Positions 7,101 through 22,995 are shown, numbered from the stretch's first letter. The stretch is DNA of 64,000 nucleotides from a virus (IMGVR_UViG_3300030106_005551:6887-70886); one strand, 5' to 3'. Notes: generated by a model from the letters alone, not told the origin. Numbers and translations are program-made.

Positions 7101-10100
7101 TTAATTTCTGTGACTACCTTTTGTTGCGTTATAATTTCTTAATACTTCTGCTGCTGATAATACATCACTATATACTAACAGTCCATCTATTTCACCATGA
7201 AACGCTCTATCTGAATCTACATCGCTAGGATCTCCAGTGCCAATATACCTCATTGTTACATTGTTACCGTCACCTAGTGTGTTATCGCCTTCTGTAACGC
7301 CTTGACCGTTTATATACATTTCAACAGTGTTATTACTACCACCTGATGTTCCAGTAACAACAATACCTACATGCACCCAATCATCAAGAGCTACGTTGTG
7401 TATATCACCGTTAGCTGCTCTAGCGGCGTCACCATTAGTGTCAGATTCTATAGTTATAGTCGCGTTAGAGTTTGCGTTATTAGTAACCGCCACAAGTTTG
7501 TGAAATACAGTGCCACCACCTAAAATTATACCTGTTGTTGAAATTGCTGAGTGTCTTTTAATCCAAAAAAGATAAGATTTGTTTTCTGTATCTACATACG
7601 TAAGTGGGGTTTCATCAACTACATCTACATATGGCCTATCTGAAATAACATTCACGGTGCCGTCATAAGTTTGGGTTAAATTCAAACTACTAGTATCTCT
7701 AGCTCTATTCATTATAAATCCTTGTCCGTCTCTAGAACTATCTAGACCTTGAGGGATTATCATTGTTTCTTGACATGTTGAACTTGGTGTTCCGTTATTT
7801 GACGCTACTAAATCTTTCCATACAGCCAGCCCATTGTTTCTCCAATATCCTGTTAAATAAGCAACTTTAGAATGAGTTAAAGCATTTAGCGCCTTTCCAT
7901 CATTATAAAGTTCTCTAACATCTGCAAGTGTTAATTGATATGTCCAAGCTGAAATTTCTGTTACAACCCCTATATGTGAGTATGCAGCTGTATCGCTTTC
8001 TGTATCTCCTATGTATAGATCTGAATCAGCAGCTGTATCACAGCTATTACTATTTGATCCTTGTACATAACTGCAAGTTTGTTTTTCTCCATTTATAAAA
8101 AACTCTACATCAGTGCCGTCTATTGCTGTATCATCGCTGTTAGAATTTCTTTTCCAATTCATTACAAAATGTGTGAATTTATCTTCTAATCTTGTCGCTA
8201 GCACCGTAACACCAAATATTTCTCCATTACCTGTGTTGTATCCTATATTTATATTACTACTACTATATGTATAATAAAGTGAAGGATTTAAATTATCAAC
8301 AGCCCAAATCATTCCAGAAGAAAAAGAATCTGTAAAACTAACCCACGCACTCACTGAGTTCCATTGATCATTAGTGGCATTCCATATATTAGTTCCTACA
8401 GTTATAGGTACATTATCTGTTTCTGCCCCGTCTATCTCTTGATCTCTAAAATATAATAGTTCATTATATGATTGTAATGCTGTTTGCGGAATATGTAATT
8501 GTTGATCTGCATCTGTCCAACCTGATGCAACACCAACTTCTTTTACCGTAACATCATCAATAAACCATTTTGTTTGATTAGCATGCTCGTAATATATTAT
8601 TAAATCACCACTCGCGCTAGTAGCTACTAATTCTACTGTTTTCCTTCCAGATGTTGCAACTGTTGCTGTAACTTCAAAAGCACTACTAGTAGCTCCAGCA
8701 TATGCTATTTTAAATACACTACCTATACCAGGGTTACTACTATCCCACCATATATCTGCTTGAATACGATACGTACGCCCCACAACAGGTGTCGTAAGAT
8801 TACTAACCGCTAATGTTGCTCCTTGTGGGTCAGTATCTGCTAATCCTGTAATTTCTAAATATGCTGGAGAACCATCATCACCAAATGTTGGGGCGGATCC
8901 ATTTGGGGAATACTCAACCCAATCACTTGCTGAAGCAAAATCTCTATTTTTAGAATCAGTTATTTGCTCATCCCCAAAAAACACAGTTGTTGCGTTATTT
9001 TTAGCGTTTACTTCATATACCTCCACGTTATCAATTTTACCAACAAATTGAGAGGTATGAGAACTTAAAATATATAAATTTTTGTTTGAAGAAGTACTAG
9101 TAGGCTTGTAATATACCGAATGAGTTCCATTGCCAGATATAGACTCAGTAGTTTCATACCCGCCTGGATTAAATTTAATTTCACCAGAAACATAATCAGA
9201 TATTGTTACTACAAATTTATACGTTTGTCCAACACCTAAATCAGTGTTTGTTAGAAATACGTTATCCTGCCTTAAATGACGAGAACCAGTTAAGGTCCCA
9301 CTTATAGTTGCGTAACCATTAGCAATAATCCAGTTATCAGAATCAGCGCTATTACACCTCCATTGTCCCGTTGCGCTAGAGGCCGTTTGATTTCCTGCTG
9401 CTAAAGATATGTTTTCAAAATCTCCACTTGTAACTAAATTATTTCCAAGTCCAATATTAGATGCATCAAGTATGTTAGTTTGATGGCTACGATTTCCATC
9501 TTGCATTGGATACCATGCTTTAAGATTAGATTGTGTAAGTGATGTGTTACCGCTACTTAATACTAAAGATTCTGGATTTAAATAATCATAAGCTACATCG
9601 CTAGCTGTCCAAGCACCTTGCCATAATTGTAAATCTGCTAAAGCTCCATCCCAAAATCTACTATTGTCATTAAGAGCGCCTATATATCTAAGCGCCATAT
9701 CAGCATAAGAACCTGTATTGTCTATTTCTCCAGTTCCATCTGCAACACCATTTAAATAAAAAGAAACAGTTGTGTCGCCGTCAAAAACCCAAACAGCTCT
9801 ATACCAAGTATTTATGTTTAAAGCTGTATTACTAACTCGCCAAGCTCCAGCACCAATATCACGTATAACCAACTTGTTAACATTAGCACCAGCACCTCTT
9901 AATCCTAAATAGCTAGTAGATCCGCCTCCGCCACCTATCAAATTCATAGAATTACTCTCGGTTGTTATTACATAGGGTTTAACCCAACAAACTATCGTCC
10001 AGGCTCTATTAGCTTGTGTGGTTTCTGCTGAAAAATCTACAAAAGTATTAGTAGCACCTAAATCTAAATAATCCGTAACTCCATCAAATTCTAATGCTCT

Positions 10101-10193
10101 ACCAGAGTAAATTTGACCGTGGTTGTTATTACCAGATGTATCTAACGCTCTTGCTATTTTTGGTGTTTCTATTTGTTGTATTGTGCTTGCCAT
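7101..10193 (-). CDS. Multi-LamG tail fibre/spike protein, 1030 aa
   Basis: At least three LamG-like segments (ALEFDGVTDY, WYRAVWVFDG..FYLNG, FFINGE, MYING..FHGEIDGLLVYSDVLSAAEV) with intervening beta-sandwich regions. Confidence 0.85.
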   Translation of the reverse strand: MASTIQQIETPKIARALDTSGNNNHGQIYSGRALEFDGVTDYLDLGATNTFVDFSAETTQANRAWTIVCWVKPYVITTESNSMNLIGGGGGSTSYLGLRGAGANVNKLVIRDIGAGAWRVSNTALNINTWYRAVWVFDGDTTVSFYLNGVADGTGEIDNTGSYADMALRYIGALNDNSRFWDGALADLQLWQGAWTASDVAYDYLNPESLVLSSGNTSLTQSNLKAWYPMQDGNRSHQTNILDASNIGLGNNLVTSGDFENISLAAGNQTASSATGQWRCNSADSDNWIIANGYATISGTLTGSRHLRQDNVFLTNTDLGVGQTYKFVVTISDYVSGEIKFNPGGYETTESISGNGTHSVYYKPTSTSSNKNLYILSSHTSQFVGKIDNVEVYEVNAKNNATTVFFGDEQITDSKNRDFASASDWVEYSPNGSAPTFGDDGSPAYLEITGLADTDPQGATLAVSNLTTPVVGRTYRIQADIWWDSSNPGIGSVFKIAYAGATSSAFEVTATVATSGRKTVELVATSASGDLIIYYEHANQTKWFIDDVTVKEVGVASGWTDADQQLHIPQTALQSYNELLYFRDQEIDGAETDNVPITVGTNIWNATNDQWNSVSAWVSFTDSFSSGMIWAVDNLNPSLYYTYSSSNINIGYNTGNGEIFGVTVLATRLEDKFTHFVMNWKRNSNSDDTAIDGTDVEFFINGEKQTCSYVQGSNSNSCDTAADSDLYIGDTESDTAAYSHIGVVTEISAWTYQLTLADVRELYNDGKALNALTHSKVAYLTGYWRNNGLAVWKDLVASNNGTPSSTCQETMIIPQGLDSSRDGQGFIMNRARDTSSLNLTQTYDGTVNVISDRPYVDVVDETPLTYVDTENKSYLFWIKRHSAISTTGIILGGGTVFHKLVAVTNNANSNATITIESDTNGDAARAANGDIHNVALDDWVHVGIVVTGTSGGSNNTVEMYINGQGVTEGDNTLGDGNNVTMRYIGTGDPSDVDSDRAFHGEIDGLLVYSDVLSAAEVLRNYNATKGSHRN

Positions 10194-10930
10194 TATGATA
10201 AAGTTCCGTTATTAGATCCGTGACTATCATTTGCATCCTCGCTTAAATTCCACCATGAAACTAAATTTGTTTTTTCGCTTGATGTAAGTTTATCGTAATT
10301 TTTCCACATTATAGACTTTACTTCTGCCCCTGTTAACACTCTATTCCATATGCCTACATTTGTCATATAACCATCCATAAAAGCACTACCACCATCGTTA
10401 CCAAGTCTTAAATCTCCAGTATTACCTATATCCGTTGTAGACGCACCACCATCGGTATTGCCTTTAACTCCATTAGCATAAATTTTAATGCCACTAGAAC
10501 CATCGCTTCTATCACAAGTTACTACGCAGTGTGTCCAAGTGTTATGAGGTATGTCTGCGCTTGGTACGCCACTTCCATCATACCCCCTGTCCATTATAGC
10601 TGTGCCCCCTACTACTGCGTAAAACTGCAAACTATCTGTTCCTTGTGTTCTAAAAAACCAATAATTAATTGAATTTTGTCTATTACTTATAATATATTGA
10701 TTGGTAGATTCATTAAAATACACCCAAACAGATATACTAAAATCATCTGTGCCTAAATTAAAAGAAGTGCTTAAACTTATATAATCATCAGTGCCATCAA
10801 AAAATGCAGCACCAGTACTCACTTGTTGTACTGCCCCACCAGCATAATCATGCCTTAAGACTAAATTGTCAGTAACAATAGATTTTTTTAATCTTTTTTG
10901 ATTAAGTAAGGAGTTTCCTAATGATAACAT
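10193..10930 (-). CDS. LamG tail protein
   Basis: AAFFDGTDDY, WTHCVVT, IYANG, MDGYMTNVGIWNRVLT, LVSWWNL. Confidence 0.85.
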   Translation of the reverse strand: MLSLGNSLLNQKRLKKSIVTDNLVLRHDYAGGAVQQVSTGAAFFDGTDDYISLSTSFNLGTDDFSISVWVYFNESTNQYIISNRQNSINYWFFRTQGTDSLQFYAVVGGTAIMDRGYDGSGVPSADIPHNTWTHCVVTCDRSDGSSGIKIYANGVKGNTDGGASTTDIGNTGDLRLGNDGGSAFMDGYMTNVGIWNRVLTGAEVKSIMWKNYDKLTSSEKTNLVSWWNLSEDANDSHGSNNGTLS

Positions 10931-11289
10931 TACTCTCCTATATAAGCGATAATACTTCCTGAAGCAGCTATATCTATTTCAGTCCAACGACCAAATATAG
11001 TTAGTCCTTCTGGAAATGTATTACTAGCGTCTATTTGATCTCCTCCCGTTCCTGACGTTATTGTTGCTGTAGATTCATTATGAGCTGGAGCGTTTGTTCC
11101 TACAAATTCACAGCTTCTATAGTTTGTATCAGCAACTAGACCGCCTGTAGCGTCAAAGGTTGTATCAGATAAAAAAGTTATTGCTACAAATACTTTATTT
11201 GTTGGCGGAGTTATTGCACCATCAGTATCTGTAAATACAGACCCTAATTGGCCAAAACCTTTTTTTACTAAATCATCTACGTTTGCCAT
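10930..11289 (-). CDS. Small beta-rich structural protein, paralog A
   Basis: Shares FGQxGSV, FxAIxF..DTTF and TFPxGxTIxGxW with the adjacent gene. Confidence 0.7.
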   Translation of the reverse strand: MANVDDLVKKGFGQLGSVFTDTDGAITPPTNKVFVAITFLSDTTFDATGGLVADTNYRSCEFVGTNAPAHNESTATITSGTGGDQIDASNTFPEGLTIFGRWTEIDIAASGSIIAYIGE

Positions 11290-11312
11290 TTTATTTTTAT
11301 TTTAAATTAATA

Positions 11313-11687
11313 TTAATATCCCACTGGAGCTAAATAACATATACACGAACCACCGTTAAGCACTATATAGTCCCATTTACCATATATTGTAACTCCTTTT
11401 GGAAATGTGTGTGACGTTGTAATTGTTTCTTGATCTGAAGTTGTACTTTCATTAGTTACCGCCCCAAATGACCCTCCTATATCTAACTCATCTGACACAT
11501 CTGATATAGACCCTACTAGCCCATCTAAAGTTTGTATATCTGTAAAGGTAGTGTCTTCCATAAATTGTATAGCTATAATAAATCTAGTAGCATTAGCTGC
11601 ATTTAAATCTAATTTAGCCCCGCTTCCGTTTAAATATACAGACCCAAACTGCCCAAAAGATGCTTTAAATAAGTCGTTTACGTTCAT
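11313..11687 (-). CDS. Small beta-rich structural protein, paralog B
   Basis: Same motifs as 10930..11289. Confidence 0.7.
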   Translation of the reverse strand: MNVNDLFKASFGQFGSVYLNGSGAKLDLNAANATRFIIAIQFMEDTTFTDIQTLDGLVGSISDVSDELDIGGSFGAVTNESTTSDQETITTSHTFPKGVTIYGKWDYIVLNGGSCICYLAPVGY

Positions 11688-11701
11688 GTTTTAAATTTTT
11701 A

Positions 11702-11709
11702 CAAATATA
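11702..11709 (-). promoter_or_regulatory. Bacteroidota -7 promoter box TATATTTG
   Basis: Intergenic, 14 nt before the ATG at 11687. Confidence 0.65.
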
Positions 11710-11724
11710 GTGAATTTAAATTAT

Positions 11725-14700
11725 TTAATTATATATCGTATTTAGTATTTGCTTTCTTGTCTCTGCATAAGGAGCCACTTCAGTGAGTAGTGTTTTTTTA
11801 GCAAGAGACGATCCTTTTTCTGCATAAGGACTTGTTCTTTTAACTTTTTCTCCAGATGTAGCTTGCCCAATAGCTTTTACAGCATTTTGTAGTGTACCTG
11901 TAGATGCAGGAACTATAGTATAATTTACAAACCTACGTAAGTCTGTTGTTACAAAAACATCATTAGAAAACTTTTTTAAAGTTCTTATAGTTTTTGTATC
12001 TGGCTCATCATCATCTTCCATCATTGCAATTAAGGATAATAACGTCACTCCTATTCCTAAACCAGCTACATGAGCCCTCATTCCCTTCTTTCTTTCTTCG
12101 CTAGATTTATTATATATATCTATTATATCTTTTTTTGTTAAGTTACCCGCAAAGTAATTTCTAAACAAGTCTGTAATAAATTCTGAGCTTGCCCTATAGC
12201 TACCTATATTAACCTCTCCAAATCTATCTATATCTTCTGCTTTAAATCTATCTCTTATTAAGGTAATAAACCATTTCTTAAACTGTAATAAAGCTCTACC
12301 ATAAGAATACATAGAAAGTAAGCTTGCGTCTAAAGCTGTATAACCCTCTCCATGTAATGTAGATATTTTATGATTAATATACATTACTCTTTCTTCTGTT
12401 ATTGTTTCAGGATTATTAAATTCTTTATCTGTTAGCATTCCTAAAAATGCAGCGCCTTGTATGTACCCTTCTGTTTTGTCCATAAAAATATAAGCCCATT
12501 TTTCTATTTTTCCAAAAGCTCCTTTCTTTTCAGAAAGATGAATAAATTCATCAAAACTATATTCTACTATTCTATTGTCAGATAATATTTTTTGTGATTT
12601 AGTAAAATCTTTCCAATATCTACTTTCTCCTTTTATAAATTGATTACCTCCACGCTTTCTTAATTCTTGATATTTACCAGCCAATACATTTCCTATACCT
12701 ACAGTCATGTTAAAACCAAGAAGTCTAAGTGATGTAAGTTTTACAAAGCCGTCTATAACTTTATCTCCTGTTTTTCCTAAAGCGCTTTCTTGTTCTTTTC
12801 TTTCTAGAAATCCTTCTTTCCACCATTCAGTTAAATATTTAACCGCGTTTTTATTATCTAAATTTTTATTAAATCCTATTATAGCATCTGTAAGTATTGC
12901 AACTTTATCCATTCCTGCAAAACGATCATCTCGTTCTACTATTACTCCGTCTTCCATTTTATATATTCCCTCACCATGCTTAAATATATGTCCTCTAGCA
13001 AACTCTAATAACGTAGTGTTTATATCATAAGATATGTTTTGTGATTTGACACCTTTTCTTATTTCATACTCCTGTATAAGTTCTGCGTCAACATCAGATA
13101 TATTTTTAGAGCCTATCATTCTTTTTAACATTGCACCGTTATTAACTAATGCATCATACTCCATATCAGAAAGCATTATTTTTTTACCATCTTCATGTAT
13201 ACCTTGAGACTTATATCTTTTTGCTTTTTTTCTTAACTTATCTAATTCAAATATTTCTCTTCCTGATTTTAATTTAAGCTTACCTGTTCTACCTTTATAC
13301 ACATCATATTTCCACTCATAAAATGTTTTATAGACACTATCTCCGTTAGAATCTATTCCTCGGACTCTTACCCTATAATAATCATTTGCATCAATAGAAG
13401 CGCTGTAAAGGCCAAATAAACCATTTCTTGACATACTTTCTAGGTTACCCATTTGTACTCCAGGTATTCTAGTTTCTCCATCATCTGATCCTAACAATAT
13501 TTCAGCAATAGCTTTATATCTAATGTAGTATTCTTCTTCTTGCTTTGTTAACTCTACTCCATTTTCTTCTATTTCCTCTGGAGTAAACAGCCTAACATTA
13601 CCATTTTCTACAGTAGCTATATTTCCGTATATATATTGATAACGAGCATTAGTATCAAACCCTTGTCTTATTCTTTCTAGTATGCTTATGCCTTTCATTT
13701 TTGATTTAACTAAAGCTCTATTCTTTTCTTCTATTAAGTTTTTGTGCTCTTTAAAGCTTTTCATATACTTTCTGTACTCTTTTTGAGCTTCATTAATTAA
13801 ATATTGTATTTCAGGCCTTTTAGATGTCATGTTATTAGATCCCAACCAGGTTTGAAATCCAGTTAAATCATCTTGAGCTACACCATCTACTCCAGGAGTT
13901 TTATATTCGTAGTTTTGTTTTTTTCCTTCGGTTCTTAAAAATTTAGCCTGCTCTTGAAACGCTCTTTGCCCTATTTCTTTTTCTATTGTATAAGCTATAC
14001 CTTTAGTAGCAGAGTTATCCATCTTTCTAAACTTTCTAGCTCTGTCATATAGACCTTCCATAGTATATTTACTTAAGGGCTTTTTTTCTAATGTTGCTTC
14101 AAACTCTCTAACTAATTTTAAATGACTTCTGTATTTGTTGTATTTTTCAACGAGCATTTTATAAGTTTTAGAGTCTCTTTCTATTTTACTTATATCAATA
14201 CCTTTGTCTGCATTCCATTCTGTAAAAGATAGAAGCTCTACTCCTTCTCCTAAATAATCGCTATTATAAGATGTGTCTGCTGTAATAACTTTTTTTGCCT
14301 TTCTAACAGGGGCTTCAAAACTATTATTATCTTTAGACGCCTTATCTATTTTTTTATCAAGAGTGTATTTATCTCTACCAGCCTTACGATTTTCAACATC
14401 TTTTATAGCATCATTTAATTCTGTAGAAACAGAGCCTGTTAAATAGTCAGCTTTTTTAGTTTGACTTTCTTCTATAATTCTAGACATTTCATCATTAATT
14501 CTTCCTAGGTATTCATTGTCAAAGAAAGGCGTAAATGATGTTGCTTTACCAGCGCCACCAGCTAAACCAAAACGATTAAACTCAGCTTCTATTTCAAAAA
14601 TTAAATTTTTATCTAAATCAGAAAGTTCGGCAAATGATTCTTTAATTTGTTCTATAGCTTTGTAAGAAGTAAACTCTGTTATTTCTGCTCTATTTAATAC

Positions 14701-17700
14701 AATATAATTCCCTTTGTCAGAAACTTGAATAACATTATCTAAAAAGTAATTCCCTTTTCTACGCTCTTGTAATTCTTTAAATTCCTTAATTAATACATCT
14801 TGATTTTTTCTTTCACCAAGCATACTAAACTCGCCTCTTAAATTATTTGTAATAACCTGATTAATAACTTCAGATTTTATTTCTCCTAACTTATTTAATT
14901 TACCTAAAACCATAGGAGTTGTTAATATATTTTGCATATAAGGAGTGTATCTTATATCTGTTCTAGATGCTCTTTCTAATATAGAATCAAATAAACCAGT
15001 AGCATGTTCTATAATGTTGTTAGTTTTAGTTTTTTCTGTAAAAGAATAATCTAATCCCATCTTGCCTAATAATGGGATTCTAACAAGCCCTTGAGCCTGA
15101 GCAATACCCTCTCTAATTTGTTTTAATTCTAAAGGGTTTTTTTCAATACTTTGGTGAACGGTAAATGCCTTAGATAAAGGATCTACAGCGGCTTGTTTAA
15201 ATTTATCTAAAGTGTAAAGCATTAATATAGCTTGCTTTTGTGTAGCTTTAGTATTTTTTAAACTTTTTAAATTTATATTAATAACAGGATTTTTAACAAA
15301 GTCTTTTATATTTATATTACCTAAGCCATTATCTTTAGCAAATTTTAATAATTGATTTTCGCTTATACTATCTTTTTGTATAAACATATCCATTATGTCG
15401 CTATCTTTAGATATATAGTCTTTACTACTATTTCTTTTAGACTCCATATATTTTTTAACTATAGGAGAATTAAATAAAACAGCTAAATCGTTTAGTGAAT
15501 AGCCAAGTCTTCTAAGCAGTACAAATGGAAATACACTTTGCATATCTAATCCTAGCTTGCTAGCATATTGGTGTTTAGCATTATCTAACGCTATATTAAG
15601 TATTTGGGCTACCCCATACCAATTACCCACTCCATTCTCTAAAGCAATATCGTCAAAAAATGTTTCTCTTGTTACAGCTTCGCTTTCTCCTTTAATAGTA
15701 ATAGCAAAAGGCAACTCATCTCTGCTATTTGAAAACACATTAAATGATCTTTGTAACGATGCTATCATTCCGACTAAATTTTTTGCTGGAACATTGTCCT
15801 CAAACATTTGCGCGTCACCCCATGGAGCTAATTGAGAGTCGGTTTCTTTTAAAGCTGGAACTTTAGCAATAGCGTTTTCAGCATCAGAAATAAAATCAAT
15901 ATCAGCCTGTATTTCTTTTTGTATTTCATCTTTACTTGCTAGCTCTACATATAAATCAAAAAACTCATTAGAATCTGCTCTCCATTCTTTTTTAGCAACT
16001 TCTTCTGGTGTCCATTTAAAGTTCATATGAATTGAATCTCCATCTAAATCAGCCCCCCAGTATTTACTCACCCACGCGGGTATAGTTACGTTAGACGTAG
16101 GAGAATCTCCAATTTGTTTATGAAAATCTTTTACTACAAATATAGAGCTGCTTACTTTACCGTGAGCGGGAACTCTTGTCCCAATAAATAAATCTCCTTT
16201 TTTAACTCCTTGTTTTTGTAAATATCCAGGAACTATTGCTTCAGATGCAACTACGTTTTCATCTCCTGCGTATAATCCTTTTTCATAAGATTTTAATCCC
16301 ATACCTAAGCTAGAAGATTGATAACCTATAGACCCCTTAGTATACATCTTAGTTCCTTTATGTGTAATTCGTCCTGTCGCTATAGAATTATGTACAGCAT
16401 TTAAATAAGGGTATCTAGGGTCAAGATTGTCATACGTGTTATCTACAAGAACGTCAAATACTTCAGCAGTAACAGATGATTTAAATGAATCCCTTTCTTT
16501 TAATACGGTTTCTTCACTGGCCTTATCATTCATTATAAGACTAGCATTTCTACTAGAGTTATTAGCCTCCATTACATTTTGCCTAAGCTCTAGCATTCTG
16601 TTTATAGTAGCCTGATTTTCTGGCGTTATATTGCTTAAAAGATTATAGAATAACTGAGAAGGAAAAAACCTTTCATCTGTCTGTTTATCTAGTTCTAATT
16701 GTATGCCTAAACCTTCTCCCGACAATCCTTGATACTTACTATCACCTCCATAGATTTCGTCTTGTTTAGTTAGTATGTCAGACATATTATAGTCTTCGCC
16801 TATATCATGTATAAAGTTATCTCCTCCCGAGTAAAGTTTAGCGGCTGATTCAGATGCGGCTATGATTAAACCACCCTTAGATGTTAAATCAATTTCTGCT
16901 TTTCTTGCCCTAAGAATATCTCCTATATTTTTAAAATAAAGGCTTTGTACTTCTAGCTCTGGAGTTAATGTATGTACAGCAAATTTCATATATGTAGTTC
17001 TGCCTTTTTGTGGCCCTTCTAATTGAGTATAATGATATACAAACTTAAATACATTACCTACCTTTTGAGCCTCACCATATTTAGCTCTAATAAATTCTGC
17101 TTGTTCAGGCAATACATATCCCATTGCATCATTCTCAATAGCAGTATCAACATTGTCTTCTGTTCCTATATTACCCTCTTTATCTACATAGTAATCTTTA
17201 GTGACAACAAATTCTACAGAGGTGTTTCTGTCAAAGACTACGTGACTAGCGATAGCTCCAGCGGCACGTTTAATATAATCTACCTGATCTTTAGATTGCC
17301 TATGGTCGTGTATAAATAACTGTTGAGCCATAAACTTGTTGGCTATATATGAAGTTAAAAAAGATTCAATAGCCCCATCTTGTAATACTCCCTTTTTTAT
17401 AGCCTCATTATTTTTAAACAACTCTTTGTTAGTATTTGCATACTCACGCCACTGTTTAATCAGCCTAGGCATTTCTTTTATCTTATTATTTTCAATAGTA
17501 TAAGGAAATACACGATCGCCATTTTTATATTTAGCATTATAAGCAGGATTATTTTTAACTCTAGATAGCAATGCTTTTCTACTTTTAGTATCGTGAGCGG
17601 CTATACTTTCTATATAATATCTCCTGCTTTTATCAGAAAATACTGCAATAGGTTGATCATATTTAATTGTTTCTTGTTTATTCTTAACTCCTTGATTGTA

Positions 17701-20700
17701 TCTGTTTAAAAACATAAAAAAGTCGCCAGCTATTAATTCATTAGGATTTACATCATTTAATTTTTTAGATCTTGATTGTTTATTTTTTAACCCTACAGCA
17801 TTATTAATAATACGTCTCATCATTCCTGAATGAACTGTAAAGTGAAATGTTTTTACACCTCTATCGTTTTTATTAAGCAATGCTAGTTGACTATAAATAT
17901 TATTATCAGGATGCATTATATCATTCTTATCAATAATTATTCCATCATTAATAATCTTTTCTACATTTTTAGCCCTATTGTGTAATCCATTTTCTTTATT
18001 AAATACACTAACTCCGTCCCCCTCTACATTATCTACCATTGATAAATAATTAATAGCTCTTGAGGCGACAAGCCCTTGTAAAAGTATAGTTCTTAATTCT
18101 GATTGTTTACCATGAATAAGTCCTTCTACAGGAAAGTTTACATAATCAGAAAACCCTTCTTTTTTATTTTTATACTTCATAAAAGATTCATACTTCATTT
18201 TTGGGCCAAACTTTGTTTTAGTATGCTCAAATAGTATGTTCCATAAAAACTGCCTTTCTCCTTTAAAAAGTATTGGTGTTTGTAATAATGCGTCTTTATT
18301 AATTAAACTACCCTTTGCGTTATCATCTAACAAAATATCTAAAACTTTATAAGCGGCATTATATCTATCGCTTCTATTTCTAGGATTTCTTTCAAAAAAT
18401 AATTCATTATATATAGCTGCAATTTGATTTGCTTTATCTTTATTTCCTTTAACGTCTTTAATAACGCTATCAATTACTCCTTGCTCTATTGTTGCGCTAG
18501 TACTTTCATATCTGTTCCAAAATCTTTTACCTTCATTTCCAATAGTTAAAACATTATGCGCCAGAACCTCTATGGTAATACCCTCAATAGGACCCTTAAT
18601 TTCCATTAGCTTAGCATTAGTAAGAGCCTTATCATTTTTATATACTCTATCTAATACGCTTAGCATTGCCATTATATTAGGGTTTTCAGAGCCCCTGAGC
18701 ATATTAATAAAATCATACGGATCATTTTGTGTGTCTTTTGCTAAAGACATAAGAGTAGCCAATAATTCTTTTGTTTTTATTTGATCGTCCTCTCTATAGT
18801 TATGCACTTCTACAATCTTTTTAATAAAATTAGTTGTAGTGGTTGGTAGCGCAATAGCTTTTGTTAAATCATCATATTTATCTACCTCATTAGTCATACC
18901 TTCAGACTCTCCAATTACATCATCAGTAGATTTTAAACTAATACCAATTTTGGCTAATTCGCCATCTAATATAATGTCTGCTTTTTTAAGATCTCCTGGT
19001 CGTTTTAACTGCGTTACAATAGCTGTAATATAATCTTTAGTATCTTTTATTAATTCATCTTTAATGTCTAAATTAGAATCATTAGCTATGGCCTCCATTA
19101 CTTTATCTGCTATTTGTTCAGGAGTTAAATTACGACCTATAAAATCTCCTATATAAGACGACACAGCAGCATATGAAGTAGGCTTTTGTAGCATTTTTTT
19201 ATTAGCCTTGTTAATAGGGCCATATCCAGAGTTCATCATATATGGCACGGTTCTATCAGCAGAATTAAAGTTAAGTAGTACAGTTTTAATTGCTGCTTCT
19301 AAATCTAATCCAGCTATATTTTCTACACTAAGATCTAATAATTTTCTAGCCTCTTCATCAGTGGCTAGCTTTTTACTTTCTTTATAAAACTCTATTAAAT
19401 CTTTTTCTAATTGTTTCTGAGCGGCAGAGCCTTTTACAACAGCGTCTACTGTTCCATAAGAATACGCTTCTAATGTTCTTGTAAATGTTTCTTCAAGTAA
19501 ATGCTTTTGTTGGTCTACCCTAACATCTTTGGCTCCATTAATTTTTAGTTGCGTTCTAAGAGATAAAAATAGTTCATTTATTCTAGTGCTGTCTCCTACT
19601 TTTTCAGCAGCAGCTATATTAGATGCAATGTCAATTAAATCACTTGTATACCTTGTCGTGTCAGTATTATTAATTATATTTCTATATATAGAGCCTAAAG
19701 TAGCCTTAACTCCTTTATAACTCATTAAAGTAAGCTCTGGGTAGTCTTGTTTAGTTTTTTGATATAATTCTGATTTAGGTAAAAGCTTTCTAATTTTTTT
19801 CATTAATGGTGTGTCTTCCATTAAACCATAATAGATATGTCCAGCTTCGTGTATTATATCTGATTGTGCTACTGAATCTATATTAATAAATACAGTAGAC
19901 CCTATAGCTAAAGATGAGGCTTCTTCACCATAATCAGTTAATAACTTTTCATAAGCTAAAACTCCTTTTGCACCAGGAAACTTTTTATTGACTATATCTT
20001 TAACTATAGATGTAGCTATAACACCAGAGCCGTATTTATATAAAGGTCTTATGTCTAATACTGTAGGCTCGTAATTAGGTATTTCTTTTTGGCTTTTTGT
20101 AAGAAACTTTTTAATTTTTTCTTTAGATTCTTTTACTGCTCCTATTAGCCTGTCTATTTTACGAGTATCTTTTTTCTTGGCTTTTTTTACAGGATCTTTG
20201 GCTTTAAAATCTCGTTGAGCTACCTTGCCTACTACTTCACCATTTATAACAACTTCTATTTCAGTTTCATATAAAAGGTTATCAAACTGAAAGTACAGCT
20301 TGCCATCCACCTCAACAACACCCTCTTGACCTTTAACTGGTTTTTTAAGACGTAATTCAACATTAGCATCTTCATCTAATACATACTTATCAGAAGTATT
20401 ATCAAAATCTCTGTACTGAATAGTTTCTCCCTCTGGAGTTTTAATAAAGTAATTAGGCCCCTTGCCTTTTTGTATGTCAGCTTTTTTTATCTGACGAGGA
20501 CCTTTTTCTAAGCTTTCTTCTGTAGTTTTATATTCCTTAGTTTTAGGAACTATTTGAGGTTGGTCTTTTTTTTTTACGTCTTCATCAGACTTTTTTTGTT
20601 TTCTTATAGCGCTTTCAATGTCTTTATTATTTATAGTTCCACCTCTGCCGCTACCTTTTATTTTTGTTGCCTCTTCTATAGATATAATACCATCTTCTAT

Positions 20701-22995
20701 AGCTTTTTTTAATTTTGTTTTTGCTCCTGAAGTAATATTAAGTTTATCTATATCTTCTATAGTTTTTTCTTCTGTTTTTGGCTTTCTAACTCTATTTACT
20801 AATCCTTTTACTCCTTCAACAGCCCTGCCCCCTAAATCTTTTACAGTTTCTAATGCTTTTGTTCCCGCTTCTTTTACTTGATCTACAAGAGGAGTCTTTT
20901 CTTCAGCTTTAGCATCTGCTTCAGCTTTTTCTCTCTCAATTTTTTGCTTTTCTCCTTCTTGTGTAAAAGCTTCAAATTCGTCTTTTGTTAATCCTTCTTT
21001 TTTAAATCTAGCATCTCTTTTTCCAGTAGATTTAGCTATAGGGGCTTGATCTACTTTAGCAGTATATATATCTTCAATAGACTGTTCTACACTTGCTAAA
21101 TCGTTATTTAAAGCTTCTATTGTAGCATCATGTCTTTCTTTTAATGCTTGTAATTTTGCTTCTAATTTTTTCTTATCTTTAATAACAGATTTTTGATGTT
21201 CCACCGTTTCATTATAGCTTGCTTTTTCATCAGCTATTTCGCCTTCCTTACGAGTTTTAACCATTTCTAAGTTAAACGCTTTTTCAGCACCTGCCTCAGT
21301 AAGAGAACTATTTACATGATGTTTTGCATAATCTCTTTCTGCTAATTCAATTCTTGCTTTATATTCTAATCCCTGCTCTTCAGACAGCTTATTATCTTTA
21401 ACTAAATTGTCTACAATAGACATAGCGGCAGATCCATCTCCTGAATAATTCCAAATATTAGACGCTATTAAATTATCTATTGCTTGCTCAAATATAATAG
21501 CTTGTTCTGCGCTCATATTGCCTTCATTGTTAGAAAGCATATCTATTACATTATTATAAGCGTCTATCTTTTTATCTGTAAGATGTTTTCTTTCAGCAGC
21601 AGCATCAAAATACCCTCTTGCTCCACCCATAGCTCCTCCTAATCCTACAGAAGACCAAAATATATCTCTTAGTCCAGAATCTTTTCCAAATGGAGCTTCT
21701 TTTAACCATGAGGTCCAAGACTCATAACCCTTATTGTTTGCTTGCTGTATATTTTTGTATTTAGCCCATTCCTGATAAACCTCTTGAAACCCTTCTGTTA
21801 ATCCTTCTACTCCAGCATAAACTCCTGCTGCTGGTAAATTTGGCACTACACTTCTCATCAACATTCCAGTAAGACCCTTCATATTTTTTGCAAATGGTGC
21901 TTTTGCTATAGGGCTTCTTAACACCTTGCCCATTAAGCCTCTACCAGCACCTCCAAATAAAATTCCATATTGAAGTATATCTACACCCATCCATATAGCG
22001 TTATCTGCCATAACTCCTGCCGCGTGACTTGCTGCTTCTTCTGGTGTAAACATAGGATTACCATTAGCATCTACATCATTAGCCATTTCTTGATACGCTT
22101 CTCCAGCCAAAAAAGCTCCTTCAAATAAATTGGCTGTTGCACCACCACCAATATATCCACTTATATTTCTTGCAAGTTTAGTAGGCTTTATTCCAGCCTT
22201 TCCTAAATCAACACCTAATTTACCTAAAGCTCCAGTGCCTTTTACTCCTTTAAACCCTTTTTCTCCAGCACCTGTTAATTTTACCCCTTTAGCCATTTTA
22301 CCAAACATTCCTGATTTAGAGGCATATTTTAATGCTGTTGGACCAAGTCTACCAAGTAGTCTTCCTGCTAGTATAGAACCACCAGCATATGGCATTATAA
22401 ACGATGCGGCATAAGGAACAAGCCTTGATATTTTTGAACTCCAAAACTCTCCTTTAAACATATCATCCCAAGTAATATCTTGCAAATCTTCAGATAATAC
22501 TAAAGCATTTTCTTTTTGATATTCTGTTCCTACTTTTTTTAAGTACGATCCTACGCTTGTAGTTAAATCGCCCTCTCCTGGAGTAAGTAACGCTGACAAA
22601 TAATCTATAGTGTCTCCTGTTCCTGAAACTAAATCACCCCAACCAGCTTTTAATCCTCTAGCAACTCTTTCTCCAGTAGAACCTATCATTGCATTAGGAT
22701 CTGTTATTTGTTGCTGTGGAGCAGGACCATATCTTTCAGCGTCTAGCCCAGAATATAATGTATTGCCCATTTCACCAGCGGCAACCCCTTGCGCGTATTG
22801 ATCTAGAGCAATATCATTAATAGTATTTGTTTGAATAGAATTTTCTATAAGGCCACTTAATCCAGTTGGACCTTGCTGCATATCTCCTTCATACAAGTTT
22901 TGTATATCTTGTTCTGGTGATTGCGGTGTTAGTGAGGGTGGTGTAGCCCTGCCTAATATTTCATTAAGACCTGAAGTATAATCGTTGTCTGCCAT
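11725..22995 (-). CDS. Giant virion protein containing crAss-like double-psi beta-barrel RNA polymerase, 3756 aa
   Basis: GTRVPAHG (R2274, P2276) followed by WGADLDGD (D2316/D2318/D2320, nt 16036-16050); HEAGH at residues 1049-1053; Gly-rich hydrophobic N-terminus; located after the tail/ejection genes as in crAss-like phages. Confidence 0.85.
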   Translation of the reverse strand: MADNDYTSGLNEILGRATPPSLTPQSPEQDIQNLYEGDMQQGPTGLSGLIENSIQTNTINDIALDQYAQGVAAGEMGNTLYSGLDAERYGPAPQQQITDPNAMIGSTGERVARGLKAGWGDLVSGTGDTIDYLSALLTPGEGDLTTSVGSYLKKVGTEYQKENALVLSEDLQDITWDDMFKGEFWSSKISRLVPYAASFIMPYAGGSILAGRLLGRLGPTALKYASKSGMFGKMAKGVKLTGAGEKGFKGVKGTGALGKLGVDLGKAGIKPTKLARNISGYIGGGATANLFEGAFLAGEAYQEMANDVDANGNPMFTPEEAASHAAGVMADNAIWMGVDILQYGILFGGAGRGLMGKVLRSPIAKAPFAKNMKGLTGMLMRSVVPNLPAAGVYAGVEGLTEGFQEVYQEWAKYKNIQQANNKGYESWTSWLKEAPFGKDSGLRDIFWSSVGLGGAMGGARGYFDAAAERKHLTDKKIDAYNNVIDMLSNNEGNMSAEQAIIFEQAIDNLIASNIWNYSGDGSAAMSIVDNLVKDNKLSEEQGLEYKARIELAERDYAKHHVNSSLTEAGAEKAFNLEMVKTRKEGEIADEKASYNETVEHQKSVIKDKKKLEAKLQALKERHDATIEALNNDLASVEQSIEDIYTAKVDQAPIAKSTGKRDARFKKEGLTKDEFEAFTQEGEKQKIEREKAEADAKAEEKTPLVDQVKEAGTKALETVKDLGGRAVEGVKGLVNRVRKPKTEEKTIEDIDKLNITSGAKTKLKKAIEDGIISIEEATKIKGSGRGGTINNKDIESAIRKQKKSDEDVKKKDQPQIVPKTKEYKTTEESLEKGPRQIKKADIQKGKGPNYFIKTPEGETIQYRDFDNTSDKYVLDEDANVELRLKKPVKGQEGVVEVDGKLYFQFDNLLYETEIEVVINGEVVGKVAQRDFKAKDPVKKAKKKDTRKIDRLIGAVKESKEKIKKFLTKSQKEIPNYEPTVLDIRPLYKYGSGVIATSIVKDIVNKKFPGAKGVLAYEKLLTDYGEEASSLAIGSTVFINIDSVAQSDIIHEAGHIYYGLMEDTPLMKKIRKLLPKSELYQKTKQDYPELTLMSYKGVKATLGSIYRNIINNTDTTRYTSDLIDIASNIAAAEKVGDSTRINELFLSLRTQLKINGAKDVRVDQQKHLLEETFTRTLEAYSYGTVDAVVKGSAAQKQLEKDLIEFYKESKKLATDEEARKLLDLSVENIAGLDLEAAIKTVLLNFNSADRTVPYMMNSGYGPINKANKKMLQKPTSYAAVSSYIGDFIGRNLTPEQIADKVMEAIANDSNLDIKDELIKDTKDYITAIVTQLKRPGDLKKADIILDGELAKIGISLKSTDDVIGESEGMTNEVDKYDDLTKAIALPTTTTNFIKKIVEVHNYREDDQIKTKELLATLMSLAKDTQNDPYDFINMLRGSENPNIMAMLSVLDRVYKNDKALTNAKLMEIKGPIEGITIEVLAHNVLTIGNEGKRFWNRYESTSATIEQGVIDSVIKDVKGNKDKANQIAAIYNELFFERNPRNRSDRYNAAYKVLDILLDDNAKGSLINKDALLQTPILFKGERQFLWNILFEHTKTKFGPKMKYESFMKYKNKKEGFSDYVNFPVEGLIHGKQSELRTILLQGLVASRAINYLSMVDNVEGDGVSVFNKENGLHNRAKNVEKIINDGIIIDKNDIMHPDNNIYSQLALLNKNDRGVKTFHFTVHSGMMRRIINNAVGLKNKQSRSKKLNDVNPNELIAGDFFMFLNRYNQGVKNKQETIKYDQPIAVFSDKSRRYYIESIAAHDTKSRKALLSRVKNNPAYNAKYKNGDRVFPYTIENNKIKEMPRLIKQWREYANTNKELFKNNEAIKKGVLQDGAIESFLTSYIANKFMAQQLFIHDHRQSKDQVDYIKRAAGAIASHVVFDRNTSVEFVVTKDYYVDKEGNIGTEDNVDTAIENDAMGYVLPEQAEFIRAKYGEAQKVGNVFKFVYHYTQLEGPQKGRTTYMKFAVHTLTPELEVQSLYFKNIGDILRARKAEIDLTSKGGLIIAASESAAKLYSGGDNFIHDIGEDYNMSDILTKQDEIYGGDSKYQGLSGEGLGIQLELDKQTDERFFPSQLFYNLLSNITPENQATINRMLELRQNVMEANNSSRNASLIMNDKASEETVLKERDSFKSSVTAEVFDVLVDNTYDNLDPRYPYLNAVHNSIATGRITHKGTKMYTKGSIGYQSSSLGMGLKSYEKGLYAGDENVVASEAIVPGYLQKQGVKKGDLFIGTRVPAHGKVSSSIFVVKDFHKQIGDSPTSNVTIPAWVSKYWGADLDGDSIHMNFKWTPEEVAKKEWRADSNEFFDLYVELASKDEIQKEIQADIDFISDAENAIAKVPALKETDSQLAPWGDAQMFEDNVPAKNLVGMIASLQRSFNVFSNSRDELPFAITIKGESEAVTRETFFDDIALENGVGNWYGVAQILNIALDNAKHQYASKLGLDMQSVFPFVLLRRLGYSLNDLAVLFNSPIVKKYMESKRNSSKDYISKDSDIMDMFIQKDSISENQLLKFAKDNGLGNINIKDFVKNPVININLKSLKNTKATQKQAILMLYTLDKFKQAAVDPLSKAFTVHQSIEKNPLELKQIREGIAQAQGLVRIPLLGKMGLDYSFTEKTKTNNIIEHATGLFDSILERASRTDIRYTPYMQNILTTPMVLGKLNKLGEIKSEVINQVITNNLRGEFSMLGERKNQDVLIKEFKELQERRKGNYFLDNVIQVSDKGNYIVLNRAEITEFTSYKAIEQIKESFAELSDLDKNLIFEIEAEFNRFGLAGGAGKATSFTPFFDNEYLGRINDEMSRIIEESQTKKADYLTGSVSTELNDAIKDVENRKAGRDKYTLDKKIDKASKDNNSFEAPVRKAKKVITADTSYNSDYLGEGVELLSFTEWNADKGIDISKIERDSKTYKMLVEKYNKYRSHLKLVREFEATLEKKPLSKYTMEGLYDRARKFRKMDNSATKGIAYTIEKEIGQRAFQEQAKFLRTEGKKQNYEYKTPGVDGVAQDDLTGFQTWLGSNNMTSKRPEIQYLINEAQKEYRKYMKSFKEHKNLIEEKNRALVKSKMKGISILERIRQGFDTNARYQYIYGNIATVENGNVRLFTPEEIEENGVELTKQEEEYYIRYKAIAEILLGSDDGETRIPGVQMGNLESMSRNGLFGLYSASIDANDYYRVRVRGIDSNGDSVYKTFYEWKYDVYKGRTGKLKLKSGREIFELDKLRKKAKRYKSQGIHEDGKKIMLSDMEYDALVNNGAMLKRMIGSKNISDVDAELIQEYEIRKGVKSQNISYDINTTLLEFARGHIFKHGEGIYKMEDGVIVERDDRFAGMDKVAILTDAIIGFNKNLDNKNAVKYLTEWWKEGFLERKEQESALGKTGDKVIDGFVKLTSLRLLGFNMTVGIGNVLAGKYQELRKRGGNQFIKGESRYWKDFTKSQKILSDNRIVEYSFDEFIHLSEKKGAFGKIEKWAYIFMDKTEGYIQGAAFLGMLTDKEFNNPETITEERVMYINHKISTLHGEGYTALDASLLSMYSYGRALLQFKKWFITLIRDRFKAEDIDRFGEVNIGSYRASSEFITDLFRNYFAGNLTKKDIIDIYNKSSEERKKGMRAHVAGLGIGVTLLSLIAMMEDDDEPDTKTIRTLKKFSNDVFVTTDLRRFVNYTIVPASTGTLQNAVKAIGQATSGEKVKRTSPYAEKGSSLAKKTLLTEVAPYAETRKQILNTIYN

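What the first reader, a model, noticed from the sequence alone, without database searches (positions are those of the whole stretch)
11725..22995. 3756-aa virion RNA polymerase polyprotein with a DLDGD active site
Seen: RVP..GADLDGD, plus a candidate second barrel with D1956, K1984 and K2004 (tentative). Known: phi14:2 gp66 (~2200 aa) is a crAss-like virion RNAP related to eukaryotic RNAi polymerases, with a DFDID motif. This one keeps the canonical DxDGD and is about 1500 aa longer. Inference: a fusion of ejection/membrane domains, protease and RNAP, from a lineage distinct from the described families.
Basis: partly seen in the sequence, partly recalled or inferred. Interest (0 to 1): 0.7.

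Follow-up and report, generated by a model that had tools for sequence, protein, structure and literature searches.

The report
Fused crAss-like virion RNA polymerase
This 3756-residue gene of a roughly 70-kb marine crAss-like phage joins the three-gene virion RNA polymerase module of phi14:2 into one protein; the enzyme type is known, but this lineage keeps the canonical DxDGD catalytic loop that described crAss-like phages have replaced.

Summary
One uninterrupted 3756-aa ORF lies at 11725..22995 on the minus strand, with a single DxDxD match, DLDGD at residues 2316-2320.

An AlphaFold model of residues 1630-2530 (pLDDT 81.6) matches the phi14:2 gp66 virion RNAP best (Foldseek E 1.5e-20; VIA Z 17.4, 793 residues aligned). 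QDE-1, plant RDR2, P23-45 gp96 and the beta-prime barrel follow.

D1956, K1984, K2004 and R2274/P2276/H2278/G2279/D2316/D2318/G2319/D2320 are invariant in 24 aligned homologues. Profile comparison shows a colinear fusion:
- N-terminus ~ gp67
- core ~ gp66 (DLDGD on DFDID)
- C-terminus ~ gp65

The phage is a distant crAss-like one: TerL and portal are 26% and MCP 20% identical to phi14:2, in the same gene order.

The size and the fusion are not new, since annotated Crassvirales RNAP genes of 4091-4551 aa exist. Three things differ:
- All 78 long homologues have Gly at motif position 4, while all 10 Crassvirales sampled have Ile or Val.
- The invariant HExxH lies upstream of the polymerase, not downstream as in phi14:2.
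- Sequence searches (Pfam, PHROGs, PDB, INPHARED) do not recognise the family.

The protease assignment rests on the motif alone.

Verdict: new variant of a known kind, of moderate interest.

The parts
11725..22995 (-). Whole 3756-aa ORF: fused virion RNA polymerase module
   Evidence: The TAATG overlap with the upstream ORF suggests translational coupling. There are 52 homologue clusters of 3470-4080 aa.
21607..22527 (-). N-terminal Gly-rich module (residues 157-463), homologous to the N-terminus of phi14:2 gp67
   Evidence: hhalign of A1 against gp67 133-402: E 2e-6, probability 89.5%. Repeated on the sub-alignment: E 1.8e-5.
20146..21318 (-). Lys/Glu-rich linker (residues ~560-950), including a small beta domain at ~841-930
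   Evidence: K+E make up 26-33 of every 100 residues. Beta strands in model m67c31facf116, residues 1-88, at low pLDDT.
19306..19998 (-). HExxH region (residues ~1000-1230), a candidate zincin-like metallopeptidase. H1049, E1050, H1053 lie at window 19837-19851; Q1163 and E1169 follow.
   Evidence: These five residues are invariant in 48 sequences. HExxH sits in a predicted helix. No PDB fold match and no Pfam match. Weak hhalign to the crAss/N4 zincin-like regions: E 0.0018, probability 14.6%.
15421..18063 (-). Two-barrel RNA polymerase core (residues 1645-2525)
   Evidence: AF2 model pLDDT 81.6, pTM 0.80. Foldseek to 6vr4_A: E 1.5e-20, TMq 0.66. VIA Z 17.4, rmsd 4.3, 793 residues aligned to gp66 276-1666. 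hhalign to gp66 860-1662: E 1.2e-7.
16984..17130 (-). Catalytic residues of the beta-like barrel (DPBB1): D1956, K1984, K2004
   Evidence: Invariant. D1956 aligns with gp66 D962 and K2004 with gp66 K1027. The Asp plus two Lys pattern matches QDE-1 D709/K743/K767 (PMC9508822).
15913..16350 (-). Beta-prime-like barrel (DPBB2, residues ~2216-2361), with RVPAHG at 2274-2279 and DLDGD at 2316-2320 (window 16036-16050)
   Evidence: Model residues 587-732 align to Rpb1 357-526: Z 9.1, rmsd 2.5, 105 residues, 21% identity. DLDGD aligns on gp66 DFDID. The motif is invariant.
15724..15825 (-). Probable bridge helix (residues ~2391-2424)
   Evidence: Long helix at model residues 762-795. In one search it aligns to the gp66 segment that the paper calls the bridge helix (1529-1559). 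This assignment is inferred.
11857..12723 (-). C-terminal module (residues ~3425-3713), homologous to the C-terminus of phi14:2 gp65. It holds the only strongly hydrophobic helix, 3641-3659 (window 12019-12075).
   Evidence: hhalign to gp65 987-1371: E 3.2e-9, probability 96%. Hydropathy scan. ESM Atlas look-alikes are large unnamed viral clusters.

Best explanation
The ORF encodes the virion-packaged, DNA-dependent RNA polymerase module of a distant, roughly 70-kb marine crAss-like phage, made as one 3756-residue chain. It is colinear with phi14:2 gp67, gp66 and gp65.

Shown here: the fold of the core; the invariant catalytic residues (D2316/D2318/D2320 in the beta-prime-like barrel; D1956, K1984 and K2004 in the beta-like barrel); homology of both ends to gp67 and gp65; and the crAss-like gene context.

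Inferred from phi14:2 and other crAss-like phages:
- The protein is made late with the structural genes and loaded into the capsid as cargo.
- It is ejected with the DNA. The Gly-rich N-terminal module and the C-terminal module with its single hydrophobic helix probably help passage through the envelope.
- The core then transcribes the plus-strand early genes (about 52-64 kb of the window) without host RNAP.
- The three Asp residues hold catalytic Mg2+, and DPBB1 Asp/Lys residues hold the second metal, the NTP and the RNA 3' end.

Because position 4 of the motif is Gly, the loop can probably adopt the canonical Mg-binding shape without the refolding proposed for gp66. The invariant HExxH region may cut the chain into working parts or act on the cell wall; this is the weakest step.
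For: - ORF and motif.
- Homologue family with invariant catalytic residues.
- Fold model: pLDDT 81.6. The best structural match is gp66 (Foldseek E 1.5e-20; VIA Z 17.4, 793 residues). QDE-1, RDR2, P23-45 gp96 and Rpb1/beta-prime follow.
- Profile matches to gp67, gp66 and gp65 in gene order.
- Phage context: TerL, portal and MCP hit crAss-type PHROGs and Crassvirales records. Pairwise identity to phi14:2 is 26%, 26% and 20%.
- The fused frame is conserved in 27 of 27 complete IMG/VR loci.
- Function of gp66 as a rifampicin-resistant virion RNAP for early genes, virion presence of gp65/66/67, and fused polyproteins in some phages: 10.1101/2020.03.07.982082.
Against: - There are no expression, proteomic or activity data for this uncultured phage.
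- No sequence method links it to gp66 without a family profile.
- The motif differs from the D-F-D-[IV]-D said to hold for all crAss-like RNAPs.
- About 1700 residues (1230-1640 and 2530-3400) have no assignment.
- The HExxH region has no fold or HMM match.
- Cleavage is not shown.
Confidence: 0.85

Rival explanations
1. It is a two-barrel RNAP, but not virion cargo: a non-virion polymerase made in the cell for middle or late transcription, like the second RNAP of P23-45 or the nvRNAPs of jumbo phages.
For: The structural matches include non-virion phage RNAPs: P74 gp62 and P32 gp64, Z 11.6. No proteomic data exist for this phage.
Against: The gene lies inside the late structural operon, coupled to its neighbours. 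Its ends are homologous to gp67 and gp65, which are virion proteins in phi14:2 (annotation). The closest fold is the virion enzyme gp66.
Confidence: 0.05
2. The chain works as an intact multifunctional ejection protein and is never cleaved. The HExxH region is not a protease: it is either a structural metal site or a cell-wall or other hydrolase.
For: No zincin fold or HMM match was found. The N4 vRNAP, about 3500 aa, acts uncleaved (PMC13434306 abstract). The frame is kept fused across the clade.
Against: HExxH plus Q1163 and E1169 are invariant down to 17% identity. A hydrophobic strand sits just before the HExxH helix, as in the zincin-like regions of phi14:2 gp65, of the Suoliviridae phages and of phage Presley. 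The profile match is weak: E 0.0018. The phi14:2 paper proposes processing.
Confidence: 0.35
3. The polymerase is mainly RNA-dependent, or dual like QDE-1. It would make double-stranded or antisense RNA rather than early mRNAs.
For: VIA Z for QDE-1 (17.3-17.4) ties with that for gp66. The DxDGD motif resembles the eukaryotic RNAi enzymes.
Against: Far more residues align with gp66 (793 against about 500-525), and Foldseek E is 1.5e-20 against about 1e-6. The context is a dsDNA phage with an early gene block. gp66 is DNA-dependent.
Confidence: 0.05

Closest known systems
Cellulophaga phage phi14:2 gp66 virion RNAP (PDB 6VR4) with its neighbours gp67 and gp65
   Same: - Best structural match over the whole core, covering both DPBB barrels, the connector and the bridge-helix region.
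- The N- and C-terminal modules are homologous to gp67 and gp65, in the same order.
- It holds the same place in a crAss-like structural operon.
   Different: - One 3756-aa chain instead of three proteins totalling 5398 aa.
- A compact core: 881 residues against gp66 276-1666.
- DLDGD instead of DFDID.
- HExxH lies upstream of the polymerase (residue 1049). In phi14:2 it is in gp65, downstream.
- No similarity detectable by BLAST or a single HMM.
Fused giant RNAP proteins of Crassvirales (Carjivirus, crAss002, Rudgehvirus, cr1_1, cr52_1; 4091-4551 aa)
   Same: A giant single ORF holds the RNAP core fused to neighbouring modules. One is annotated 'RNAP catalytic subunit fused to unknown RNAP subunit'.
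   Different: - All of them carry D[FL]D[IV]D.
- gp66 finds them by tblastn (116 records), whereas this protein finds none.
- Their genomes are about 90-104 kb, against about 70 kb here.
Neurospora QDE-1 and plant RDR2 (eukaryotic RNAi polymerases)
   Same: Single-chain two-barrel fold: Z 15-17 with about 470-525 residues aligned. The 4th motif position is Gly (stated for all previously studied RNAPs), and the barrel 1 pattern is Asp plus two Lys (PMC9508822).
   Different: They are eukaryotic, RNA- or DNA-templated enzymes that make dsRNA, and they have no virion or ejection modules. Sequence identity is only 10-14%.
N4-like (Schitoviridae) virion RNAP
   Same: Works alike: a giant protein of about 3500 aa, packaged in the capsid and ejected to transcribe early genes (PMC13434306 abstract). 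The zincin-like stretch of phi14:2 gp65 even matches the vRNAP of phage Presley.
   Different: From my own knowledge, the N4 catalytic core is T7-like and single-subunit, not two-barrel. No N4-type RNAP appeared among the structural matches.

Membership tests
Two-barrel (double-psi beta-barrel) RNA polymerase superfamily | Two DPBB domains forming the catalytic cleft | tested here: met
   The model aligns over both barrels with gp66, QDE-1 and RDR2 (Z 15-17). Barrel 2 alone aligns with Rpb1 357-526: Z 9.1, rmsd 2.5.
Two-barrel (double-psi beta-barrel) RNA polymerase superfamily | DxDGD metal-binding loop in the beta-prime-like barrel | tested here: met
   DLDGD at 2316-2320 is invariant. All 78 long homologues have DxDGD.
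Two-barrel (double-psi beta-barrel) RNA polymerase superfamily | Conserved Asp and two basic residues in the beta-like barrel | tested here: met
   D1956, K1984 and K2004 are invariant. D1956 and K2004 align to gp66 D962 and K1027. K1984 falls two positions from a gp66 Lys, so that single equivalence is uncertain.
Two-barrel (double-psi beta-barrel) RNA polymerase superfamily | Bridge helix and trigger loop | tested here: inconclusive
   A long helix at 2391-2424 aligns to the gp66 bridge-helix segment. The trigger loop was not resolved residue by residue.
Two-barrel (double-psi beta-barrel) RNA polymerase superfamily | Mg-dependent templated RNA synthesis | not testable with these tools
   Needs an enzyme assay.
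crAss-like virion RNAP (gp66 type) | Core closest in structure to gp66 | tested here: met
   Foldseek E 1.5e-20 against about 1e-6 for the next family; 793 aligned residues.
crAss-like virion RNAP (gp66 type) | Ile or Val at position 4 of the catalytic motif (DFD[IV]D), stated for all crAss-like phages | tested here: not met
   Gly in all 78 homologues. Ile or Val in all 10 sampled Crassvirales.
crAss-like virion RNAP (gp66 type) | Linked to gp67-like and gp65-like modules in the late structural block of a crAss-like genome | tested here: met
   for the modules. for TerL, portal and MCP.
crAss-like virion RNAP (gp66 type) | Present in virions and delivered into the host | not testable with these tools
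   Uncultured phage; no proteomics.
Zincin-like metallopeptidase | HExxH on a helix plus a third metal ligand | tested here: inconclusive
   HExxH is invariant and lies in a helix. E1169 and Q1163 are invariant candidates for the third ligand, about 116 residues downstream.
Zincin-like metallopeptidase | Zincin fold or family HMM match | tested here: inconclusive
   No match by Foldseek or VIA wide on an 801-residue model of pLDDT 68.5. No Pfam hit. hhalign to crAss/N4 zincin-like regions: E 0.0018, probability 14.6%. The domain was not folded alone.

The most novel reading that the evidence does not exclude
This clade of fused 3500-4350-aa proteins could be an early-branching sister lineage of Crassvirales that keeps the ancestral, canonical DxDGD catalytic loop; distant members even read DYDGD or DFDGD. 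The Gly-to-Ile/Val change, and the self-inhibited loop seen in gp66, would then be a later Crassvirales invention. These phage enzymes would be the closest viral counterparts of the eukaryotic RNAi polymerases. That would give a direct test of the proposed phage origin of those enzymes.
Probability: 0.2. Interest if true: 0.7.

Novelty: new variant of a known kind. Interest (0 to 1): 0.45.

Why it matters
The gp66 study stated that every crAss-like RNAP has Ile or Val at the fourth motif position. It tied that residue to an odd, Mg-incompatible loop and to a self-inhibition model. Here a whole metagenomic clade has the same module but a canonical Gly: 72 clusters at 50% identity, seen in marine viromes.

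That gives a natural comparison for testing whether the Ile/Val loop really serves regulation. It also gives a more compact core, about 880 residues, for structural work. It provides an outgroup for rooting the history of phage and eukaryotic single-chain two-barrel polymerases.

Practically, the family is invisible to Pfam, PHROGs and BLAST, so such contigs are currently annotated without their key enzyme.

Tried and rejected
- Pfam and PHROGs on the whole protein and on seven segments gave nothing meaningful.
- phmmer and a family profile against PDB sequences found no RNAP.
- tblastn of both halves against 50,697 phage records found no match.
- PHROGs on four shorter distant homologues gave nothing.
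- hhalign of segments 900-1300, 1300-1650, 2500-3050 and 3050-3420 against gp65, gp66 and gp67 gave nothing. A first script timed out.
- The fold of residues 840-1640 had no match above background in Foldseek PDB or VIA wide. That model covers several domains and is only of middling confidence, so this does not show a new fold.
- Pfam on the HExxH region of nine clade members gave no peptidase family. Only the classic crAss-like locus L043 gave weak SprT-like and M91 hits.
- ESM Atlas gave only weak 'large polyvalent protein' leads (LPD1/5/23/38), not confirmed by HMM.
- A scan of 185,579 prokaryote genomes found no relative, so there is no prophage or host clue.
- A first alignment was too large for the fold server.
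- The 2018 Yutin paper could not be read.
- The PSBD-like motif noted earlier is not recognised by Pfam at E up to 5.
- No DPBB-core phylogeny was attempted, because identity between groups is about 10-13%.
- Complex prediction, sequencing-run tools and RNA tools were not used.

Full report
**Observation.** The window holds one open frame of 3756 codons at 11725..22995 on the minus strand. Its ATG overlaps the stop of the preceding ORF as TAATG. The pattern DxDxD occurs once in the protein: DLDGD at residues 2316-2320, window 16036-16050, forty residues after GTRVPAHG.

**Context.** The whole minus-strand block from about 51 kb to the window start is a phage late operon.
- TerL lies at 45697-47514, portal at 43389-45692 and the major head protein at 40693-42228.
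- The best database relatives of TerL and the head protein are Crassvirales and flavobacterial crAss-like phages, at 25-30% identity.
- Against Cellulophaga phage phi14:2, TerL is 26%, portal 26% (full length, E 5e-63) and head protein 20% identical, in the same gene order.
- The identical protein is on record from a 70,935-bp contig, and relatives sit on contigs of 65-74 kb. This is therefore a distant crAss-like phage with a genome of roughly 70 kb.
- No relative was found in 185,579 prokaryote genomes.

**Family.** Pfam, PHROGs, PDB sequences and tblastn against 50,697 phage records do not recognise the protein.
- The metagenomic protein collection holds 52 clusters of homologues, nearly all of 3470-4080 aa.
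- An exhaustive HMMER pass over 1.84 billion representatives finds only 72 clusters. The most widely kept piece is residues 2266-2530.
- IMG/VR holds 41 loci. In 27 of the 27 clade loci where the frame is not cut by a contig end, it is uninterrupted at 3500-4110 codons.
- In a 24-sequence alignment reaching 24% identity, the invariant columns include D1956, K1984, K2004, R2274, P2276, H2278, G2279, G2314, D2316, D2318, G2319 and D2320.

**Fold of the core.** Residues 1630-2530 were folded with a 39-sequence alignment, giving pLDDT 81.6 and pTM 0.80.
- Foldseek against the PDB puts the phi14:2 virion RNAP gp66 (6VR4) first: E 1.5e-20, TMq 0.66. QDE-1, plant RDR2, the phage P23-45/P74 RNAPs and cellular beta-prime/Rpb1 follow.
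- VIA-align gives Z 17.4, rmsd 4.3 A and 793 aligned residues against gp66 276-1666. Against QDE-1 it gives Z about 17 with about 500-525 residues.
These align to Rpb1 357-526, the active-site barrel: Z 9.1, rmsd 2.5 A, 21% identity. That test is passed.

**Residue-level match.** A profile of the family aligns to gp66 860-1662 at E 1.2e-7.
- DLDGD falls on DFDID, and RVPAHG on RIPNQG.
- D1956 falls on gp66 D962, and K2004 on K1027 (positions).
- K1984 falls two positions from a gp66 lysine, so that one equivalence is uncertain.
- The pattern of one Asp and two Lys in barrel 1 is the one described for QDE-1 (D709, K743, K767) and Pol II (PMC9508822).

**Fusion.** In phi14:2 the transcription order is gp67 (1797 aa), gp66 (2180 aa), gp65 (1421 aa).
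- Residues 157-463 here match gp67 133-402 (E 2e-6).
- Residues about 3425-3713 match gp65 987-1371 (E 3.2e-9, probability 96%).

The protein is thus a colinear fusion of the three-gene module, shortened from 5398 to 3756 residues. The gp66 paper already says that the three proteins are virion components. It also says that in some phages they are fused into one polyprotein, likely cleaved, and that gp65 carries a zincin-like domain (10.1101/2020.03.07.982082). Annotated Crassvirales records confirm giant fused genes: 4551 aa in cr1_1, 4464 in cr52_1, 4098 in Rudgehvirus, 4091 in a Carjivirus and 4245 in crAss002. The size and the fusion are therefore not new.

**What differs.**
1. *The catalytic motif.* The gp66 paper states that all crAss-like RNAPs have Ile or Val at position 4, and links this to a loop shape that cannot bind Mg. 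I confirmed D[FL]D[IV]D in 10 of 10 sampled Crassvirales from Steigviridae, Suoliviridae, Intestiviridae and one unclassified virus, and in the one classic 94-kb IMG/VR contig picked up (L043, DFDID). By contrast, all 78 homologues longer than 1400 aa in this family have Gly:

| Motif | Homologues |
|---|---|
| DLDGD | 53 |
| DFDGD | 6 |
| DYDGD | 6 |
| DHDGD | 5 |
| DNDGD | 5 |
| DQDGD | 2 |
| DKDGD | 1 |

2. *The position of HExxH.* An HExxH (1049-1053) with Q1163 and E1169 is invariant in 48 sequences down to 17% identity. It lies upstream of the polymerase, whereas in phi14:2 the only HExxH is in gp65, downstream.
3. *Divergence.* The gp66 core finds 116 Crassvirales records by tblastn. 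This protein finds none.

**The protease question.** I folded residues 840-1640; pLDDT is 68.5, with HExxH in a helix of pLDDT about 80.
- Neither Foldseek nor the wide VIA search gave a match above background.
- Pfam found no peptidase family in nine clade members.
- The local pattern resembles the zincin-like stretches of phi14:2 gp65, of the Suoliviridae phages cr131_1, cr10_1 and cr53_1, and of the N4-like phage Presley vRNAP. In each, a hydrophobic strand is followed by a short loop and then HExxH.
- A profile comparison aligns the motifs, but only weakly: E 0.0018, probability 14.6%.

I rate a metallopeptidase as somewhat more likely than not. It is not shown, and neither is cleavage.

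**Other anatomy.**
- Residues 200-400 are Gly-rich. Residues 560-950 are Lys/Glu-rich. The only strongly hydrophobic 19-mer is 3641-3659, inside the gp65-like module.
- Residues 1230-1640 and 2530-3400 remain unassigned.
- ESM Atlas look-alikes of the C-terminal module are large unnamed viral clusters of 500-590-aa proteins. This is a lead only.

**Mechanism.** The best reading is a virion-packaged DNA-dependent RNAP that is ejected with the genome and transcribes the plus-strand early block. gp66 is shown to do this in phi14:2, with rifampicin-resistant early transcription. Shown here are the fold, the catalytic residues, the homology of both flanks and the context. Packaging, ejection, template preference and processing are inferred. 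The Gly at position 4 predicts a canonical Mg-binding loop.

**Novelty and verdict.** This is a known kind of enzyme in a known kind of fused arrangement. It comes from an undescribed sister-like clade that has a canonical active-site loop and a rearranged HExxH module. I class it as a new variant of a known kind, with interest 0.45. The more ambitious reading is that it is an ancestral-type lineage bridging the phage and eukaryotic RNAi polymerases. That is not excluded, but it needs a rooted, structure-guided phylogeny that I could not build reliably at 10-13% identity.

Other readers' notes in this scan already called this genome a marine crAss-like phage. I checked that independently with TerL, portal and MCP.

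Noticed in passing
window 20611-20736 (residues ~754-795 of the giant protein): A stretch in the Lys/Glu-rich linker looks by eye like a peripheral-subunit-binding domain (KGSGRGG.I...DI). Pfam does not detect E3_binding, even at E up to 5, on the 81-aa segment.
   Followed up: partly
L058 (Acinetobacter phage Presley, NC_023581.1 53487-54629): The zincin-like stretch of phi14:2 gp65 matches the virion RNA polymerase of an N4-like phage: 35.8% identity over 73 aa, E 3e-5. The same HExxH module may therefore ride on two unrelated kinds of ejected polymerase.
   Followed up: partly
L043 (IMGVR_UViG_3300045988_162307, 94,456-bp contig), ORF 2447-12787: A classic-size crAss-like contig carries a 3447-codon fused frame with DFDID and an upstream HExxH. 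That region gives weak SprT-like and Peptidase_M91 hits, followed by a weak ART-PolyVal hit (PF18760, E 4.9e-4).
   Followed up: partly
window 28204-34941 (-): A second giant ORF of 2245 aa lies in the same operon. It hits phrog_28748 'virion structural protein' (E 3e-59) over residues 1417-1698 only. The rest is unassigned.
   Followed up: no
window 5341-6237, 7101-10193, 10193-10930 (-): Three ORFs downstream of the polymerase share matches to the same PHROGs (phrog_8510, phrog_3545). This looks like repeated tail-fibre-type modules.
   Followed up: no
RefSeq Crassvirales records: Several Crassvirales RNAP genes carry misleading product names: 'nuclear pore complex protein-like protein', 'DNA helicase', 'DUF1768 domain-containing protein' and 'DprA-like'. 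All of them contain the RIPT...DFD[IV]D core.
   Followed up: partly
window 11728-13098 (residues 3300-3756): ESM Atlas places the C-terminal module next to large unnamed viral clusters of stand-alone 500-590-aa proteins (score 0.98, up to 441 members). This hints that the module circulates as a separate gene in many other phages.
   Followed up: no
P0050, P0051 (distant homologues, 3971-3991 aa): These two homologues carry a precomputed Pfam hit PF09537 that the others lack. It may be an extra inserted domain.
   Followed up: no
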